Shown here one piece after another: positions 35,038-45,986 of a stretch of DNA of 64,000 nt. The stretch is from positions 1-64,000 of the IMG/VR virus record IMGVR_UViG_3300030117_003378; one strand, given 5' to 3'. The position numbers and the translations under genes are program-made. Every line of letters begins with the position of its first letter. Positions within the stretch are counted from its first letter, which is position 1. Source of the stretch: a virus. The notes under the pieces were generated by a model. It was not told the DNA's origin, made no database searches, and saw nothing but the letters and a program-made list of their open reading frames with translations.

Positions 35038-35625
35038 TGGCTCCGCCTTCGGGCGTCGAGCAATTCCCTGACCCCCTAACAGGGGGTGGCCCTCAAAGGG
35101 CGACCCATTAGGCGGAGCCATGGACGGCGTAGCATACCGTTCCATTGTTCTGAACCGGTGGGTTGCAAAGGTACCTATGTCCCGGCTTGTGACCCCAAGC
35201 CCGACAGAGAGCCACCCCCGAATAGGATTCCAAGAAAGGACAGAATATCAGGGCCGAACACGGGCAACTGTGGTGAGGAAGAAAAAGGGGGTGGCTTGGC
35301 TTAACCTTATCAAGTCTCTCATTTCACCTTGACAGGAAACAGTTGCCGTGCGGCGATATAACCAAAAACTGTTTTCATTGTCTTGGTGGTGAGATAAAAT
35401 ACTGTGTGTTTATACCGTTAGAGTTTGGTTGCTTTCTCTATCCGACAAATACAGCAACAAATACACACAAGGCGCTATCCGTAGTCTGAGTAGTTAACAG
35501 ATTGCGAACAACGTAAGAGAGAGGTTGTGGGGTGACTCCCCTCTCCGCCTATCCGTAAATCAGCCGTAGCCGGTCACAAGCCCGGTTTAGAAATGATGAG
35601 TGCGGAAACCCGACCGAAGAGGGAT
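35038..35625 (+). ncRNA. putative large structured RNA A
   Basis: No convincing ORF; several 10-12 bp complementary pairs, including long-range and crossing ones. Confidence 0.5.
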
Positions 35626-36820: not shown

Positions 36821-36834
36821 CGGAGGTGACATTT

Positions 36835-39800
36835 ATGACAAACAACATGAATGTAACTAACGGTCTACGGGTCGTCTTCGTTGTCATGGCACTTGCTTTC
36901 GTTGGCCTCGCGGCTAGCGGAGCAGTTGTCACAGACAGCGCAGACACCCACGGGGTTGTAACAAACCCCACACACATGGGAGTCGGTGGAAACACTGACC
37001 ACATGGAGGTGCTTGAGTTGCACCATCGTCCGCGAAACAGCGCCCAACGTCGTCGTTGGCGTCTTGCCAAAACATCATGGCAACGTCGACGCGCTCGTTG
37101 GCTCTCGCTGAATAGCCTTCAGGCTTTGCGAGACGCATGGGACAAACTTGCCCCAAGAACACAGTTTAGAATTAAGCACGGCTTCGCCAAAGCAAAATTC
37201 GTGGGTGTTATTGGGCTGATGGCTATGATGACTTACTACGTCATCGGACTGCCATTGGCCTTCCTTGTGGGCAAAACCAACCGACGGTGGTACAAGCCCG
37301 GTGTCTATGTGGCGGCGGATTACCTCGTTGCAAAACTCAAATCCGATAAAGAGGATAGAGAACTTGTAGCGCAGGAAAAACGTCAACTGCATCGGGACAT
37401 GGATGAGGTTCAGGACGAGTTGAACATTGCGACTGAAGAACACGAAAAAGCGGTTGACCATCACCGTGAACTAGAATTGTTGCATAAGGACGACCCTGTA
37501 CTGTTTGGTGAGGACGAACTGAAGCAAGCAATTGCTGATGTAGAAGACACCAAGGAATGGGTCAACGAAGCCACTGAGTCATTGCAGTCTGTTCTCGACA
37601 GAGTGGAACAATTCTACTCTGTCAAGATTGATATGCGGCTTGGTAAGTACGGTGAGAATGTAGCCGAGAAATACGGCAGTAGGTTCGCTGAAGTTGACAC
37701 AAGTCTGTTGGAACTTAACCCTGACAACTGGACAGTTGCACCTGAGCATGAAGCAAAGGTTCTGAACATTAGCGACGAACCTAAAGATGGCTTGCGACAA
37801 ATGATGCGAACCAATCTACGGGAAGTGTCAAAGGAGTTTGGTGTGCAAACACCTGTGTTCCGCAACGGTCCGCGTTCGTACACCATCAAGGGCGACGGTT
37901 CAGTGCATGACTATGTCAGAGACGCTGACAGGTCAACCGATACGGTAGCACCCGATACCCGTGCCTATGGCTTTGAGACAAATTTCCCTGTCTCAAACCT
38001 AACTGCGATGATGCGTCACTTGGACATCTACTACACGGCGCAACAACGGTTCCATTGGCCCGGACACTCAAAGCCCGGACAACCGTCAATGATTGTTGAT
38101 GTAGAGTGTGGTTGGCACCTCCACATATCGGTTGCCGCTGGACTTGAGGGCGCGAAGGACAACATCAAAAGAATTCGCAAACTTGGTACTGGCAACGCAA
38201 CACACGATGTGTGGGTTGACTGGCAAGCCGCATTTACCATTAACTATCATGGTAACATTGAGCAGTTCAATGGGATGATGGGCAGAAGCCGCGACCACAA
38301 CAACAGTAACAACACTGGCTATGCGAAGCCTCAGTTTAGTCGTATCAACCATTTGCGTAAGGCAAAGGCACTGTACGAACTTGCGAAGCCTCGCGTGACA
38401 GAAACGGCGCAGGAAGCAAAAGACCGCTTCACTTCGCTCGCTGTTGAGTGGCGAAAGTTTGACGGACCCCATGCGGTTGGACACGAAACACTGGAACAAC
38501 TGGAAAAGTGGGACGGCGTGTCTGCCGTTCCTACGCGAGTTGCTAACCGGTTGCTTAAGAATGCTCGTAAGAAGTATCACGAAGCATTTTGGGCTATGGT
38601 CGACGAAGGTCGTAGCGACTACTGGATGGTTAACTTCGGTGGTTATACGGAACACGGCACAGTAGAGGTCAGACACATGGGCGGATTGAACAACTGGTTC
38701 ACTTCCTGCCTATGGATGATTACCATACAAAAGTTGATGATTGATTCAATGGATGGCAAAGAGTTCTTCATTGCATCACAACACAACAATGGTAGCCAAA
38801 AGGACCCACGCCGCGATGCGTCACAGGCACACGCCTTTGCACAATGGTTGTGTAACGGCTACGAGTGGCCGAAGCCGGTACAGGTTTTCTTGGATGTCTA
38901 CGGCATCACGGAATTCGCAAGTCTGAATGCGGACGCTGTCAACAAGAGTCACCTTGAAGGACAAAGTGTCTTTGTCGAGTCAATCTTGGCATTCAAGGAA
39001 TTTGACGATTGGCAACCATCTGCTGATTTCGTGGACATGAGCGACAAGCGATTAGCCAAGTGGCGACAAAAGTCGTATGCCATGATGGGTGAGACATACA
39101 TCGAACCCGGCAGTACCAACCCGTACAACGCAAGTCTGTTCGGTGTCGGCCTAATCGGTGCTATTGTCGCAGGTACGTCACCAGTGCTAATTGCGCTCGC
39201 GTGCGTAGCGTGTGGCATCGGCGGTTGGATTAACATGAACGTCGATGACGATGGCAAGCCGACAAAGCCAAGTCGTGGTGAGTGGAAGGGGATTCTCAGA
39301 ATCCTCGCCGAACTGTCCTCGCGTGGCTCAGAAGCCTGTGGTGTTGCTTACAGCAGAGGTGACGGTAAGGTACACGGTGCATGGGAAGTAGAACCCGAGT
39401 CCAAGAAGAAGGACAAGTGGGGCTACTACTCATCAGGTATCAACGTACCCAAGATGGTCGGCAGTCTGATTATGAAGAAGATTGCCAAGGGCCTCGGTCG
39501 AATGGGCTTCCGCATGAAGTGGGTTATGACGCACACCCGTCATAGCACAGGCGGTGCTAACAACCGACGCAATGCACATCCAATCAAGGTTGGACCGAAC
39601 GATAACCAAAATGCCGGTATAGTGCTAACGCACAACGGCATGATTTCGTTCAACGCAGAGCGCAAGGTCGAGGACACGCTACCCGAAGAATACTTCGTAT
39701 CGCGTAGCAAGGACATTCGTGGTCTTGAGTTAGATACACGTTGCATCGTGTACTGCTTGGACTACTATGGTTCGACCAACGACGGCATCGACAAGATGGC

Positions 39801-40533
39801 GGCACTGTGTGACTTCGACGGTAGAGCGTCCATGCGTCTCGTATGGGTCGACAAGTCAGAATCGCGTGACGGGTTCCCCGAGCGCGTTCACTTGTGGGCT
39901 AACTGCGACGACCTATGGGTTGCACAGACAGTCAAGGGTAACTGGGTGTATGCTTCAACGCAAAACATCTTGAAGCGTACCTTCGGTAACGTGCTTATAG
40001 ACAGCACTATCCGACACCTAAACCTTGACGCGCACTATGTCATTGATTGGCAACATGGCCTAATCAACCTTGGCAAGTGTGGCAACAAGCACATCGTAGA
40101 GCCTGTCAAGCGTGACTCAAACGCATGGAAGACTGGTCGTAGCACAACTAACAAGCCCGCGACTGTCAACTTAGATGCTTTGGTGTCACCCAAGACAGTA
40201 CCGCCTGTCAAGAACATCATGGATGACGGCTTCTACGAATGCCGCAACTGTGAAAACGGACACTGGTTGACGTTTGACAACAACTGGAATATGTGCCAAA
40301 TCTGCGGTCGTTCAGCAGACGATGTGGTTGACTCTTGCAGTAGCCCATCGTGTGAGACTGACACATTGTGGGACACCTTGCCCGAAGAGGTCAAGACAAC
40401 TGTTCCACCTGTTGGTAGTCCTGACTTGAAGGGATTTGTCGACGAGGTAAATGCCAAGGCAAAGGTTGACGCTAACCTGCGACCGGTCAAGGGCGCACTC
40501 ATGGCGCACGACGAAGACACGCGACAGGCCTGA
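36835..40533 (+). CDS. membrane-associated fusion: putative amidoligase (COOH-NH2 ligase) + class II (Ntn) glutamine amidotransferase + Zn ribbon
   Basis: IKGDGSV, GFE..P, ECGWHLH, GTVEVR (amidoligase); CGIGG, RG.E..G, HTRHSTGG..NAHP, HNG.I, D (GATase II); CxxC..CxxC; GGAGGTGA SD before ATG 36835. Confidence 0.8.
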   Translation: MTNNMNVTNGLRVVFVVMALAFVGLAASGAVVTDSADTHGVVTNPTHMGVGGNTDHMEVLELHHRPRNSAQRRRWRLAKTSWQRRRARWLSLNSLQALRDAWDKLAPRTQFRIKHGFAKAKFVGVIGLMAMMTYYVIGLPLAFLVGKTNRRWYKPGVYVAADYLVAKLKSDKEDRELVAQEKRQLHRDMDEVQDELNIATEEHEKAVDHHRELELLHKDDPVLFGEDELKQAIADVEDTKEWVNEATESLQSVLDRVEQFYSVKIDMRLGKYGENVAEKYGSRFAEVDTSLLELNPDNWTVAPEHEAKVLNISDEPKDGLRQMMRTNLREVSKEFGVQTPVFRNGPRSYTIKGDGSVHDYVRDADRSTDTVAPDTRAYGFETNFPVSNLTAMMRHLDIYYTAQQRFHWPGHSKPGQPSMIVDVECGWHLHISVAAGLEGAKDNIKRIRKLGTGNATHDVWVDWQAAFTINYHGNIEQFNGMMGRSRDHNNSNNTGYAKPQFSRINHLRKAKALYELAKPRVTETAQEAKDRFTSLAVEWRKFDGPHAVGHETLEQLEKWDGVSAVPTRVANRLLKNARKKYHEAFWAMVDEGRSDYWMVNFGGYTEHGTVEVRHMGGLNNWFTSCLWMITIQKLMIDSMDGKEFFIASQHNNGSQKDPRRDASQAHAFAQWLCNGYEWPKPVQVFLDVYGITEFASLNADAVNKSHLEGQSVFVESILAFKEFDDWQPSADFVDMSDKRLAKWRQKSYAMMGETYIEPGSTNPYNASLFGVGLIGAIVAGTSPVLIALACVACGIGGWINMNVDDDGKPTKPSRGEWKGILRILAELSSRGSEACGVAYSRGDGKVHGAWEVEPESKKKDKWGYYSSGINVPKMVGSLIMKKIAKGLGRMGFRMKWVMTHTRHSTGGANNRRNAHPIKVGPNDNQNAGIVLTHNGMISFNAERKVEDTLPEEYFVSRSKDIRGLELDTRCIVYCLDYYGSTNDGIDKMAALCDFDGRASMRLVWVDKSESRDGFPERVHLWANCDDLWVAQTVKGNWVYASTQNILKRTFGNVLIDSTIRHLNLDAHYVIDWQHGLINLGKCGNKHIVEPVKRDSNAWKTGRSTTNKPATVNLDALVSPKTVPPVKNIMDDGFYECRNCENGHWLTFDNNWNMCQICGRSADDVVDSCSSPSCETDTLWDTLPEEVKTTVPPVGSPDLKGFVDEVNAKAKVDANLRPVKGALMAHDEDTRQA

Positions 40534-40597
40534 GCCTGACCCAACGATTGAGGGGGGGCAGTAATGCCCCCTCTCTCTCTAAGGGAGGTGAAATAAT

Positions 40598-41092
40598 ATG
40601 GAGAAAACAATCAAGAAGATTGAAGCCCATTTGGCTCTTTGGATTGAGATGGTTGCGGTATTGTGGATTGATGGCAATGCCCACTATCTACTTTTCAATG
40701 AATACCAAATATCCATGTTCCGAAGTGGACGAACACTACACTTTGGTTTGGTCGTAAACGGTGAAACGGTTGCCAAGTCTCAAATGTCATGGATGCCCGG
40801 TTGTTCAGCAATTTGGTTTGCACATGGCCTTTGGGTACATGAAGACTACCGGTCAAAGGGGAAGCACTCAGGTTGCGGTGCATTATACATTATTCGCCAA
40901 TGGCAGAGAAGACTCTTGTTGGATATGGAAGCGAGCCGTGTTTACATCACGGTGCCAGCAGATAATCCAGCAGGGTTGAGAGCGGCTGAAAAGGCGGGTT
41001 ATGTAAGAATGCCCGACCCACACGATGTGGTTAGCGAGCGACACGGATTCGGACGAGCAATCATGTTCGTTTGGGACCCAATCGGCGCTTGA
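40598..41092 (+). CDS. GNAT-family acetyltransferase
   Basis: LWVHEDYRSKG motif A; V..DNPAG...EKAGY motif B; GGAGGTGA SD. Confidence 0.75.
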   Translation: MEKTIKKIEAHLALWIEMVAVLWIDGNAHYLLFNEYQISMFRSGRTLHFGLVVNGETVAKSQMSWMPGCSAIWFAHGLWVHEDYRSKGKHSGCGALYIIRQWQRRLLLDMEASRVYITVPADNPAGLRAAEKAGYVRMPDPHDVVSERHGFGRAIMFVWDPIGA

Positions 41093-41114
41093 ATACGTCG
41101 CAAGATAACACACC

Positions 41115-45023: not shown

Positions 45024-45986
45024 ATGGCAAAGACAGGAAGAGCAGAAGCCGCGCTGAAGCGCGACCAAATGAGAAACATGGTGGTTGAAACCATCATCAA
45101 GCAAATGGAGAGTGGAAGCACCGATTGGTTGCGACCGTGGACAAAGTCGGGTGGTTCAGAATTGCCCGTCAGCAACGTCGGTCGCTCATACCGAGGCATC
45201 AATGTATGGTGGCTTTGGGCCAACGCATCTCAAAACGGATGGGGCAACGAATGGGGGACTTTCGCTTCATGGAAGAAGGCCGGAGAAGCACACGCTAACT
45301 CAATCGGAAGTGACGAGTATTTCGGTGTTCAGAAGGGCATGAAGTCTACACCGGTTTTCTTCTACAAGATGCTCAAGATTAAGGACAAGGACAACGAAGA
45401 CGAGGAGAAGATGATTCCCCTGCTCAAGTGGTTCTATGTGTTCAACCGAGCGCAGACCAACCTGCCGGACAAGGTATATGTTGATGACGAAACTCACGAA
45501 GTCAGCGAGGAGGCCGCAGAATTGGAGGCGTTGGCACTGTACGACAAGCACAATGTGGATTTGCGGTACGGTGGAGGTCGAGCATTCTATCGGGTGTCGA
45601 CAGACCACATTCAAATGCCGAATCGAGAGCATTTCCGTGACTCGACAGGGTTCACGGCAACACTACTACACGAATTGACTCATTGGACAGGTCACCCGTC
45701 ACGACTCAATCGGAAGTTGGAAAACTCATTCGGAGGCAACGAGTACGCCTTTGAGGAATTGATTGCAGAGATGGGTGCGGCAATGGTTTGCGCCGAGGTC
45801 GGCGTGGACAATGACCACCTGATGATTGACAACCACGCGGCATACGTCACATCGTGGCTCAAGGGACTCAAGACGGACGGTGGCGCACAAGCCCTATGGC
45901 GAGCCGCCGCCCATGCACAGAAGGCCGCAGATTGGATTCTCGGCACAGGCTACGACGGAAAGGAGGACGAGAAGAATGAATCATAA
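45024..45986 (+). CDS. ardC: ArdC-like antirestriction/ssDNA-binding protein with zincin domain
   Basis: W.RPW, YRGIN..L, W.TF..W, F.VFN..Q, AFY....D.I.MP, HELTHWTGH..RL.R, YAFEEL.AE.GA, AAY..SWL. Confidence 0.9.
   Translation: MAKTGRAEAALKRDQMRNMVVETIIKQMESGSTDWLRPWTKSGGSELPVSNVGRSYRGINVWWLWANASQNGWGNEWGTFASWKKAGEAHANSIGSDEYFGVQKGMKSTPVFFYKMLKIKDKDNEDEEKMIPLLKWFYVFNRAQTNLPDKVYVDDETHEVSEEAAELEALALYDKHNVDLRYGGGRAFYRVSTDHIQMPNREHFRDSTGFTATLLHELTHWTGHPSRLNRKLENSFGGNEYAFEELIAEMGAAMVCAEVGVDNDHLMIDNHAAYVTSWLKGLKTDGGAQALWRAAAHAQKAADWILGTGYDGKEDEKNES

What the first reader, a model, noticed from the sequence alone, without database searches (positions are those of the whole stretch)
36835..41092. 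Membrane amidoligase-Ntn amidotransferase polyprotein with an internal catalytic Cys, plus GNAT: candidate host-surface modification system
Seen: one ORF with N-terminal hydrophobic segments, a coiled coil, amidoligase motifs (ECGWHLH at 38104-38124, GTVEVR at 38656-38673), a hydrophobic stretch (GVGLIGAIVAGTSPVLIALACVA), then CGIGG at 39211 starting a class II GATase domain (RG.E, HTR.ST, NAHP, HNG), and a Zn ribbon. No start codon precedes this Cys. A GNAT gene follows. Established: class II GATases need a free N-terminal Cys (B. subtilis PurF removes a propeptide); phiEco32-like phages carry amidoligase and GATase II as separate genes, proposed to modify the cell envelope. Inference: this archaeal virus makes a precursor cleaved at A|CGIGG, by autoprocessing or a membrane peptidase. 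The products could amidate or ligate, and with the GNAT acetylate, a host envelope or protein target (superinfection exclusion or takeover) in a host lineage without peptidoglycan.
Basis: partly seen in the sequence, partly recalled or inferred. Interest (0 to 1): 0.85.

Follow-up and report, generated by a model that had tools for sequence, protein, structure and literature searches.

The report
Viral amidoligase-GATase polyprotein, internal catalytic Cys
A marine, probably archaeal, tailed virus encodes one long membrane-associated protein that joins an ATP-dependent amide ligase to a glutamine-hydrolysing domain whose catalytic cysteine sits in mid-chain behind a conserved hydrophobic segment, so the protein probably has to cut itself to work. 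The same layout is kept across a whole lineage of related viruses.

Summary
ORF 36835-40533 (+) encodes a 1232-aa protein made of N-terminal hydrophobic segments, a glutamine-synthetase-fold amidoligase, a 25-residue hydrophobic segment, a class II (Ntn) glutamine amidotransferase domain starting at Cys796 (codon 39211), and a Zn ribbon. No start codon precedes the Cys.

The fusion is not an assembly error. Contigs from three independent studies span it in frame. 19 viral loci and 32 protein clusters keep the junction: hydrophobic segment, Pro at -11/-10, [VI][GAN]|CGIG.

Separate-gene relatives start M|CGI, and the Cys aligns with residue 1 of PurF and GlmS. Processing at Ala795|Cys796 is therefore the best reading, but it is untested.

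Charge bias and flanking Zn-binding modules suggest both enzyme domains are cytoplasmic. That favours self-cleavage over a membrane peptidase.

The virus (73.8 kb; PolB, RFC, GroEL, ERCC4) is magrovirus-like. Its 60-kb relatives carry the gene at the same position.

The GNAT gene has a GNAT fold but is a ~565-bp insertion absent from the closest relative and from all 43 related loci, so it is not part of a conserved system.

The substrate, and any role at the host surface, remain speculation. I rate this a new variant of the known phage amidoligase + GATase module.

The parts
36822..36837 (+). Shine-Dalgarno GGAGGTGA (36822-36829) and ATG start (36835-36837)
   Evidence: Read directly from the sequence. 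Homologs and the Atlas record start at this Met.
36835..40533 (+). Amidoligase-GATase fusion gene. It encodes 1232 aa from the ATG. Residue numbers in this report count from GTG 36826, which gives 1235 aa.
36865..36930 (+). N-terminal hydrophobic segment 1 (residues 14-35), signal- or anchor-like
   Evidence: Hydropathy peak 2.51. Conserved in P0003-P0009.
37195..37272 (+). Hydrophobic segment 2 (residues 124-149), preceded by an Arg-rich stretch. Present in P0001, P0003, P0008 and P0009; absent in P0004-P0007.
37711..38775 (+). Amidoligase_2-like carboxylate-amine ligase domain (about residues 296-650). Invariant residues: E307, E309, D357, S359, E384, H431, H433, R489, G611, T612, E614, R616.
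   Evidence: Alignments; Pfam hits on relatives; fold search.
39136..39210 (+). Hydrophobic pre-Cys segment (residues 771-795) with Ser-Pro at 785-786. Proposed propeptide and membrane-dipping anchor.
39208..39213 (+). Predicted scissile bond Ala795|Cys796 (gcg|tgt)
   Evidence: The Cys aligns to residue 1 of PurF and GFAT chains. The cleavage itself is inferred.
39211..40131 (+). Class II (Ntn) glutamine amidotransferase-like domain (residues 796 to about 1102). Conserved residues: C796, R833-G834, H903-T904-R905, N916-A917-H918-P919, H936-N937-G938, D970.
40240..40353 (+). Zn-ribbon-like Cys cluster (C1139, C1142, C1157, C1160, C1171, C1176)
   Evidence: Sequence. Conserved in P0003-P0008. 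The phiEco32-type GATase also has C-terminal Cys clusters.
40598..41092 (+). GNAT-fold ORF (164 aa) with its own SD. It lies inside a ~565-bp insertion relative to L002 and is not a conserved partner.

Best explanation
The gene encodes a membrane-associated precursor of a two-part enzyme, and this precursor is a conserved gene of a magrovirus-like virus lineage.

1. N-terminal hydrophobic segment(s) hold the protein at the host cytoplasmic membrane.
2. A glutamine-synthetase-fold amidoligase (Amidoligase_2 type, with the ATP/Mg-dependent carboxylate-activating residues intact) faces the cytoplasm.
3. A conserved hydrophobic segment of about 25 residues with a central Pro dips into the membrane. 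It also acts as the propeptide of the class II (Ntn) glutamine amidotransferase domain that follows.
4. That domain needs a free alpha-amino group on its nucleophile Cys. The precursor therefore cleaves itself between Ala795 and Cys796 by an N-to-S acyl shift, as in other Ntn hydrolases.
5. This gives an amidoligase fragment of about 88 kDa that keeps the hydrophobic tail, and a GATase-Zn-ribbon fragment of about 48 kDa that begins CGIGGW.
6. The freed domain hydrolyses glutamine, or a gamma-glutamyl amide. Together with the ligase it makes or edits an amide bond on a membrane-proximal target, early in infection.

Shown: the domain identities, the catalytic residues, the junction conservation, the absence of a start codon, and the split relatives with Met-Cys.
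Inferred: the cleavage, its autocatalytic nature, the topology, the coupling of the two activities, and the target.
For: The architecture is real:
- Four close clusters (79-93% identity) and more distant fused homologs exist.
- 19 fused ORFs were found in IMG/VR loci.
- 25 further clusters carry PF12224 + PF13522.
- Contigs from three independent studies span the junction in frame.

The Cys is the Ntn nucleophile:
- Profile position 33 (= Cys796) aligns to residue 1 or 2 of PurF and GFAT chains. GlmS 1xff scores E 1e-20.
- The fold matches.
- Arg905, Asn937-Gly938 and Asp970 align with GlmS Arg73, Asn98-Gly99 and Asp123, and are invariant.

Natural contrast between split and fused forms:
- Separate-gene relatives almost all start M|CGI. 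In phiEco32-like EP335 the Cys follows a single Ile codern after a stop, i.e. a single Ile codon.
- Fused forms have Gly (26), Ala (5) or Asn (1) at -1, V/I at -2, and Pro at -11 or -10 in 28 of 32. None of these -1 codons can start translation.
- A small residue at -1 is typical of self-processing Ntn hydrolases (own knowledge: Gly-1|Thr1 in the proteasome, Gly|Cys in penicillin V acylase).

Cytoplasmic location of both domains:
- In the short subfamily, the flank after TM1 carries 3-5 K/R.
- The flank before the pre-Cys segment is acidic with no K/R, and the flank after it has 4-8 K/R.
- Zn-binding Cys clusters lie on both sides.
- A natural variant (P0003; run X8) interrupts the first half of the segment with IDISDLVID, leaving only about 17 hydrophobic residues. 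A full membrane span is therefore not required.

Lineage-wide conservation at one genomic position: TerL 56-60%, PolB 49-51% and RFC 44-46% identical in complete 60-kb relatives.
Against: - No experiment or proteomic datum shows cleavage.
- AF2 gave the pre-Cys segment low confidence (pLDDT about 40), so its geometry is unknown.
- The window's own amidoligase region fails Pfam's threshold, and its model is poor (pLDDT 56).
- Topology is unresolved in the window's clade. Close relatives differ by one hydrophobic segment (P0001/P0003 versus P0004-P0006), and segment 1 looks like a cleavable signal peptide.
- Known class II GATase propeptides are short (11 residues in B. subtilis PurF; own knowledge). 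An N-terminal part of about 800 residues has no precedent in that family.
- Nothing identifies the substrate.
Confidence: 0.5

Rival explanations
1. Same precursor and same cleavage, but the GAT-II-like domain is not an ammonia donor. It would be a thiol peptidase or gamma-glutamyl hydrolase (as in EgtC) that trims or reverses what the amidoligase attaches. The pair would then form a peptide- or amino-acid-tagging and editing system acting on proteins or metabolites.
For: Pfam's own description of PF12224 (own knowledge, after Iyer et al. 2009) calls the neighbour a 'glutamine amidotransferase-like thiol peptidase'. EgtC is among the structural matches (4zfk, E 1e-7). The retained Arg/Asp pair fits any substrate with a free gamma-linked glutamyl moiety, not only glutamine.
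Against: The best sequence and fold matches are true amidotransferases: GlmS and PurF at E 1e-20 to 1e-12, against 1e-3 for YafJ-like proteins. No tag-like small gene is conserved next to the fused gene. The only conserved small neighbour is a Cys-rich module.
Confidence: 0.22
2. The precursor is not cleaved. The GATase-like domain would work with an internal Cys, or be catalytically silent and serve as a binding or regulatory module tethered to the ligase by a true transmembrane helix.
For: No direct evidence of processing exists. Fusion proteins are usually not cleaved. The hydrophobic segment scores as a TM helix (peak 2.3-2.8).
Against: The whole catalytic set (Cys, Arg, Asn-Gly, Asp) is invariant over sequences only 24-37% identical. 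Split relatives keep the Cys directly after Met. Class II GATases use the Cys alpha-amine as general base (established; own knowledge).
Confidence: 0.15
3. The hydrophobic segment acts as an internal signal peptide. The GATase domain would be translocated and released by a host membrane peptidase: signal peptidase I, a lipobox-type peptidase (the junction [LIV][VI][GA]|C resembles a lipobox), or an intramembrane protease. It would then act on the cell envelope from outside.
For: The junction fits [LVI][ASTVI][GAS]C in most members. The segment is hydrophobic and ends in small residues.
Against: - There are 4-8 K/R in the 15 residues after the segment.
- Zn-binding Cys clusters follow the GATase domain.
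- Lipidation would block the catalytic thiol.
- Asn at -1 and Cys/Ala at -3 occur in some members.
- Variants with only about 17 hydrophobic residues exist.
- The segment is internal and lacks a basic n-region.
- Classic Lgt/Lsp enzymes are not known in archaea (own knowledge).
Confidence: 0.08
4. The fusion is an assembly or frameshift artefact that joins two genes.
For: One related locus (L006) has the two halves as overlapping ORFs (ATGTTGA overlap).
Against: The fused frame is found in 4 close and more than 40 distant clusters or loci. It is also found in contigs from three independent studies, with 0 gaps or a 24-nt in-frame insertion.
Confidence: 0.01

Closest known systems
phiEco32-like coliphage module (e.g. 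phage EP335 ORF87 Amidoligase_2-like + ORF86 class II GATase with C-terminal Cys clusters)
   Same: Same two enzyme families in the same order, with a Cys-rich tail after the GATase. These are the best hits for the window's GATase domain among cultured phages. Function is likewise unknown; the published guess is cell-wall modification or superinfection exclusion (PMC10580990 and PMC11706807, citing Iyer et al. 2009).
   Different: There the two are separate soluble proteins, and the Cys follows a single (Ile) codon directly after a stop codon. There is no hydrophobic segment and no N-terminal anchor. Identity is only about 27% over about 165 residues.
Class II (Ntn) glutamine amidotransferases with a propeptide (B. 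subtilis PurF, glutamate synthase)
   Same: Same fold, same nucleophile position and same glutamine-binding residues. Both need to expose Cys1 by removing preceding residues (own knowledge).
   Different: Known propeptides are about 11-40 residues and carry no enzyme. Here the part in front is about 450-800 residues and includes a complete ligase domain and a conserved hydrophobic segment.
Self-processing two-subunit Ntn hydrolases (gamma-glutamyltranspeptidase, penicillin G / cephalosporin acylases, acid ceramidase)
   Same: One precursor is cut at X|Nucleophile into two chains that stay together, with a small residue at -1 (own knowledge). This is the proposed logic here.
   Different: In those enzymes both chains build one Ntn fold. 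Here the N-terminal chain would be an independent ATP-dependent ligase. No sequence relation beyond the superfamily was found.
Fused Amidoligase_2 + GATase_6 proteins of marine viral contigs (unnamed 'hypothetical protein' clusters, 760-1020 aa)
   Same: Same family and same junction. Same virus lineage and same genome position.
   Different: - The window's clade is longer (about 1230-1450 aa), with an extra N-terminal region of about 290 residues.
- Its amidoligase domain is divergent and carries insertions.
- It has no Zn ribbon before the hydrophobic segment.
- It has Ala instead of Gly at -1.
- The window's copy has lost the C-terminal 'QPH...DC.GPC' module.
MurT/GatD and asparagine-synthetase-type amidation enzymes (functional analogy only)
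   Same: A glutaminase coupled to an ATP-dependent carboxylate-activating enzyme amidates an envelope precursor (PMC3267633 for MurT/GatD).
   Different: Different folds (Mur ligase + class I GATase; ATP-PPase). No homology was tested or claimed.

Membership tests
Class II (Ntn) glutamine amidotransferase domain (Pfam GATase_6/7) | Four-layer alpha-beta-beta-alpha Ntn fold | tested here: met
   AF2 model pLDDT 74.8 (core 80-97). Foldseek 1xff_A E 3.4e-10, PurF 1ao0 E 2.6e-9.
Class II (Ntn) glutamine amidotransferase domain (Pfam GATase_6/7) | Nucleophile Cys homologous to Cys1, plus Arg, Asn-Gly and Asp of the glutamine site | tested here: met
   Cys796 aligns to residue 1 or 2 of PurF/GFAT chains. 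R905, N937-G938 and D970 align to GlmS R73, N98-G99 and D123. All are invariant in 22 sequences.
Class II (Ntn) glutamine amidotransferase domain (Pfam GATase_6/7) | Cys at the N-terminus of the mature chain (free alpha-amine) | not testable with these tools
   In the ORF the Cys is residue 796 (793 from the ATG), with no start codon before it. Whether the mature chain begins there needs protein chemistry.
Class II (Ntn) glutamine amidotransferase domain (Pfam GATase_6/7) | Score above Pfam's gathering threshold | tested here: inconclusive
   Window copy scores 22.3 bits against a cut-off of 27. Relatives P0013-P0015 score 51-60 bits. The family profile against PDB GlmS gives E 1e-20.
Amidoligase_2 (PF12224; GS/GCS2-like carboxylate-amine ligases) | Match to the family model | tested here: inconclusive
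   The window copy has no hit. 16 of 17 aligned relatives hit it, best 2.1e-24. P0008 scores 44.7 bits and P0015 47.2 bits against a cut-off of 22.
Amidoligase_2 (PF12224; GS/GCS2-like carboxylate-amine ligases) | Conserved acidic, His and Arg residues of the metal/ATP site (ExE, E, HxH, R, TxExR) | tested here: met
   E307, E309, E384, H431, H433, R489, T612, E614 and R616 are invariant across window-clade and short-subfamily sequences.
Amidoligase_2 (PF12224; GS/GCS2-like carboxylate-amine ligases) | Glutamine-synthetase-like fold | tested here: met
   In VIA-align, the top 18 of 48,161 chains are all GS/GCL/YbdK/GmaS/PafA/Dop: Z 11.4-6.7, 235-259 aligned, rmsd 4.7-6.0. The model is of low confidence (pLDDT 56), and Foldseek gives only E 7e-3.
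Phage amidoligase + GAT-II module (phiEco32 type) | The two families encoded together, amidoligase first | tested here: met
   Fused in the window. Adjacent or nearby in nearly all of the 43 related loci and in EP335.
Phage amidoligase + GAT-II module (phiEco32 type) | Two separate polypeptides, with the GATase Cys at position 2 | tested here: not met
   A single ORF with an internal Cys. For this reason I file it as a variant, not a plain member.
GNAT acetyltransferase (ORF 40598-41092) | GNAT fold / family model | tested here: inconclusive
   Pfam Acetyltransf_1 scores 17.4 bits against a cut-off of 20.7. The Atlas model matches GNAT clusters at TM 0.65-0.69.
GNAT as a component of the amidoligase-GATase system | Conserved co-occurrence with the fused gene | tested here: not met
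   No homolog in any of the 43 loci. It is a ~565-bp insertion relative to L002, with identical flanks.
Lipoprotein-type signal peptide (lipobox) | N-terminal basic n-region, h-region, then [LVI][ASTVI][GAS]|C | tested here: not met
   The pattern before the Cys fits in most members. But the segment is internal, has no basic n-region, and is followed by 4-8 K/R. Asn at -1 also occurs.
Magroviruses (viruses of Poseidoniales / MG-II archaea) | Tailed-virus morphogenesis module plus an archaeal-type replication set (PolB, RFC, nucleases) and often GroEL | tested here: met
   TerL and portal; RFC small subunit and GroEL; PolB and ERCC4; DenV-like glycosylase. Compared with the descriptions in PMC5434244 and PMC10160649. 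No phylogeny was done, and the host itself was not tested.

The most novel reading that the evidence does not exclude
This would be the first class II glutamine amidotransferase made as an internal domain of a polyprotein. A conserved Pro-containing hydrophobic segment would hold an inactive ligase-glutaminase precursor at the membrane. Self-cleavage at G/A|Cys would switch on a two-subunit, glutamine-dependent amidoligase. Magrovirus-like viruses would use this enzyme early in infection to amidate a membrane-linked envelope precursor of their archaeal host, for takeover or superinfection exclusion.
Probability: 0.15. Interest if true: 0.8.

Novelty: new variant of a known kind. Interest (0 to 1): 0.55.

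Why it matters
The amidoligase + class II GATase pair has been noted in phages since 2009 and is now listed as an 'auxiliary metabolic gene' in marine and archaeal viruses, but no function has been shown.

This lineage offers a sharp, testable handle. The catalytic Cys sits in mid-chain behind a strongly conserved junction, so either a new self-processing route exists in this enzyme family or the textbook requirement for a free N-terminal Cys does not hold here.

The gene keeps a fixed position in complete genomes of an abundant, uncultured group of marine viruses. That suggests a role in the infection cycle rather than an occasional passenger.

A self-cleaving module that ends in a defined N-terminal Cys could also be useful as a protein-engineering part.

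Tried and rejected
Gene context came from the search for related loci instead.
- Complex prediction of the amidoligase part with the Cys796-start GATase part gave no verdict: score 0.00, controls not run.
- tblastn of the window's amidoligase region against cultured phages found nothing.
- Single-sequence phmmer of the C-terminal 440 aa against PDB gave only weak Zn-ribbon (uS14) rows. The amidoligase profile against PDB sequences gave nothing useful.
- One search failed because I gave the wrong frame.
- Iyer et al. 2009 (PMC3268129) is not held, so its exact statements on fusions could not be checked. The jumbo-phage review only cites it.
With A5 it gave two fused hits, both in MAG bins labelled bacterial (Parvibaculum, Opitutales). 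The 61-kb one is the same virus type. I take this as binning, not host evidence.
- A 157-nt contig from a metatranscriptome library lies on 39234-39389. It is too small, and DNA carry-over is possible, so I do not count it as expression.
- An internal start that would give Met-Cys is rejected: the -1 codons are GCG here and Gly/Asn/Ala codons elsewhere.
- Promoter and terminator scans were at chance level.

Full report
**What is there.** The window holds one long ORF on the + strand, from GTG 36826 to stop 40533. A strong Shine-Dalgarno sequence (GGAGGTGA, 36822-36829) sits 5 nt before ATG 36835. All homologs and the Atlas record begin at that Met, so the gene is 36835-40533 and the protein is 1232 aa. 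Residue numbers below count from the GTG, giving 1235 aa.

- ECGWHLH at 38104-38124.
- GTVEVR at 38656-38673.
- The hydrophobic stretch at 39136-39210.
- Cys796 (tgt) at 39211, preceded by gta gcg.
- RGSE, HTRHST, NAHP and HNG.
- A CxxC...CxxC ribbon at C1139-C1160.

**Domain identities.** On its own, the window protein gives only sub-threshold matches:
- Pfam GATase_6 at 22.3 bits against a cut-off of 27.
- A PHROG 'GlmS-like' hit at E 7.5e-7.
- No Amidoligase_2 hit.

An exhaustive search of 1.84 billion representatives found distant fused homologs, P0007-P0009, P0014 and P0015. These pass Pfam's thresholds for Amidoligase_2 and GATase_6.

For the GATase domain:
- A profile of 22 GATase halves matches the GlmS glutaminase domain (1xff) at E 1e-20 and PurF at E 3.5e-12. 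The column of Cys796 falls on residue 1 or 2 of the PurF and GFAT chains.
- The AF2 model (pLDDT 74.8) matches 1xff, PurF, AsnB and EgtC by Foldseek, best E 3e-10.
- Arg905, Asn937-Gly938 and Asp970 line up with GlmS Arg73, Asn98-Gly99 and Asp123, and are invariant.

For the N-terminal enzyme:
- 16 of 17 aligned relatives hit PF12224, best 2e-24.
- The ExE, E, HxH, R and TxExR columns are invariant, including in the window copy.
- The model is low-confidence (pLDDT 56), but its 18 best structural matches among 48,161 chains are all glutamine synthetase, glutamate-cysteine ligase, YbdK, GmaS or PafA/Dop, at Z 11.4-6.7.

Both assignments stand. The window's amidoligase is simply a divergent copy with insertions.

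**The fusion is real and widespread.**
- Four close clusters (79-93% identity) share the full architecture.
- Of 43 IMG/VR loci fetched, 19 carry a fused ORF of 765-1306 aa.
- A profile search found 25 more clusters annotated PF12224 + PF13522, from Tara, JGI, ENA, Logan and NCBI. All are unnamed.
- The two nearest Atlas clusters are fused proteins labelled 100% viral.
- Contigs from three independent studies (2014, 2021, 2025) span 38700-39800 with no gaps, or with a 24-nt in-frame insertion.

An assembly error is excluded.

**The junction.** In 32 cluster representatives:
- The residue before the Cys is Gly (26), Ala (5) or Asn (1).
- Position -2 is Val or Ile.
- A Pro sits at -11 (24 cases) or -10 (4 cases).
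- The Cys is followed by GIGA or GIGG.

None of the -1 codons can start translation. By contrast, related stand-alone GATases almost all begin M|CGI. In phiEco32-like phage EP335 the reading frame opens stop-K-I-CGIV, so the Cys follows a single Ile codon.

The family therefore keeps the textbook arrangement whenever the gene is separate, and replaces it with a fixed hydrophobic-Pro-x9-G motif whenever it is fused. Two rare stand-alone forms keep a 14-16-residue hydrophobic leader (L006, P0013). The leader thus belongs to the GATase half.

I read this as a propeptide that must be removed at X|Cys. Self-cleavage by an N-to-S acyl shift is the rule in Ntn hydrolases and is known for B. subtilis PurF (own knowledge). 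A small residue at -1 fits that. Cleavage itself is not shown.

**Where the domains sit.** In the short subfamily:
- The N-terminal anchor is followed by 3-5 Lys/Arg.
- The pre-Cys segment has an acidic N-flank with no Lys/Arg, and a C-flank with 4-8 Lys/Arg.
- Zn-binding Cys clusters lie just before the segment, and also after the GATase domain or in a small downstream gene.

By the positive-inside rule, and given the need of Zn sites for a reducing compartment, both enzyme domains should be cytoplasmic. A simple membrane span cannot give that. A kinked, re-entrant or interfacial segment can.

A natural variant (P0003, and the contig of run X8) breaks the first half of the segment with IDISDLVID, leaving about 17 hydrophobic residues. 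This argues against export followed by signal-peptidase or lipobox-type cleavage, even though [LIV][VI][GA]|C resembles a lipobox.

Topology in the window's own clade is less clear. Close relatives differ by one hydrophobic segment, and segment 1 looks like a signal peptide.

**Genome context.**
- The record is a 73.8-kb viral genome rated complete.
- It encodes TerL, portal and tape measure; an RFC small subunit and GroEL; PolB, ERCC4 and PD-(D/E)XK nucleases; a DenV-like glycosylase; and ArdC.
- This is the gene set described for magroviruses of Marine Group II archaea (PMC5434244, PMC10160649).
- Complete 60-kb relatives share TerL (56-60%), PolB (49-51%) and RFC (44-46%). They carry the fused gene at the same place relative to TerL.

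The gene is therefore a conserved feature of a virus lineage. The archaeal host is a published prediction for such viruses and was not tested here. Two fused hits in bacterial MAG bins are most simply binning artefacts.

**The GNAT.** ORF 40598-41092 probably has a GNAT fold. However:
- No homolog occurs in any of the 43 related loci.
- In the 83%-identical relative L002 the whole cassette is missing between otherwise near-identical flanks. The cassette is about 565 bp and includes a hairpin, an SD and the ORF.

It is a strain-specific insertion, not a partner of the system.

**Other differences.**
- The nearest relatives carry a second C-terminal Cys-rich module ('QPH...DC.GPC').
- In the short subfamily that module is a separate small gene just downstream.
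- The window genome lacks the module altogether.
- The phiEco32-type GATase also ends in Cys clusters.

**Function.** Nothing here identifies the substrate. Two readings fit the conserved residues:
- A glutaminase that feeds ammonia to the ATP-dependent ligase. I prefer this one, because the closest sequence and fold matches are true amidotransferases.
- A gamma-glutamyl thiol peptidase that edits the ligase's product (Pfam's description of PF12224, after Iyer et al. 2009).

Membrane association suggests a membrane-proximal target. 'Cell-wall modification / superinfection exclusion' is a guess repeated in the literature for phiEco32, OM43 phages and Vyasavirus (PMC10580990, PMC11706807). I found no paper that notes the fusion or the internal Cys, but the key 2009 paper is not held.

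**Verdict.**
- Observation: confirmed.
- Interpretation: partly supported. The domains, the junction and the need for processing hold up. The GNAT linkage does not, and the membrane-peptidase option is unlikely.
- Novelty: a new variant of the known phage amidoligase + GATase module.
- Interest: moderate (0.55). The mechanism is testable with one expression experiment.

Noticed in passing
window 35552-35606 (+); L002:2943-2997: Match to the type-P1 twister ribozyme (Rfam RF03160): 46.8 bits, below the gathering score of 67.2, E 4.8e-8. It covers the whole model, but one internal stem is replaced by a short loop. The same score is found in the 83%-identical relative, and none in L003 or L004. 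It lies in an ORF-poor ~600-nt stretch about 1.2 kb upstream of the fused gene, on the same strand.
   Followed up: partly
window 40534-41100: The GNAT-fold ORF, with a GC hairpin and its own SD, is a ~565-bp insertion relative to L002. The downstream flank is nearly identical in both, a moron-like cassette.
   Followed up: yes
L001 (Escherichia phage EP335) 3303-5324: The annotated GATase ORF86 starts 59 codons too late. The stop-to-stop frame opens K-I-CGIVLAGG, so the catalytic Cys follows an Ile codon directly after a stop. This suggests a non-ATG start. The neighbouring ORF87, named 'GlmS-like', looks like Amidoligase_2 by motifs.
   Followed up: partly
P0003-P0009 C-termini; L004:9402-9641, L005:9135-9659 and others: A small Cys-rich module (C..C...QPH...DC.GPC) is either fused to the C-terminus of the long fused proteins, or encoded as a separate ~80-aa gene just downstream in the short subfamily. 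It is absent from the window genome.
   Followed up: partly
window 36826-37300 versus P0004-P0007: Close relatives differ in the N-terminal region. The window and P0003 have an Arg-rich stretch plus a second hydrophobic segment. P0004-P0006 have an unrelated, shorter segment in its place. This changes the predicted number of membrane passes.
   Followed up: no
L027:7917-9833, L032:4318-6201: Other viral GATase-like proteins carry an N-terminal TM helix, then a KKRR or KNK stretch and a short linker, then CGLFGW. There too the Cys is internal (residue about 32-37), with the amidoligase encoded downstream.
   Followed up: no
L047, L048 (genome contigs): Two contigs carrying the fused gene are binned in MAGs labelled Parvibaculum (9 kb) and Opitutales (61 kb). 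The 61-kb contig also has the virus's PolB and RFC, so it is a whole viral genome inside a bacterial bin.
   Followed up: partly
window 45024-45986: ArdC-like antirestriction protein with a zincin peptidase domain (PF08401 + PF18818), 97% identical in L002.
   Followed up: no
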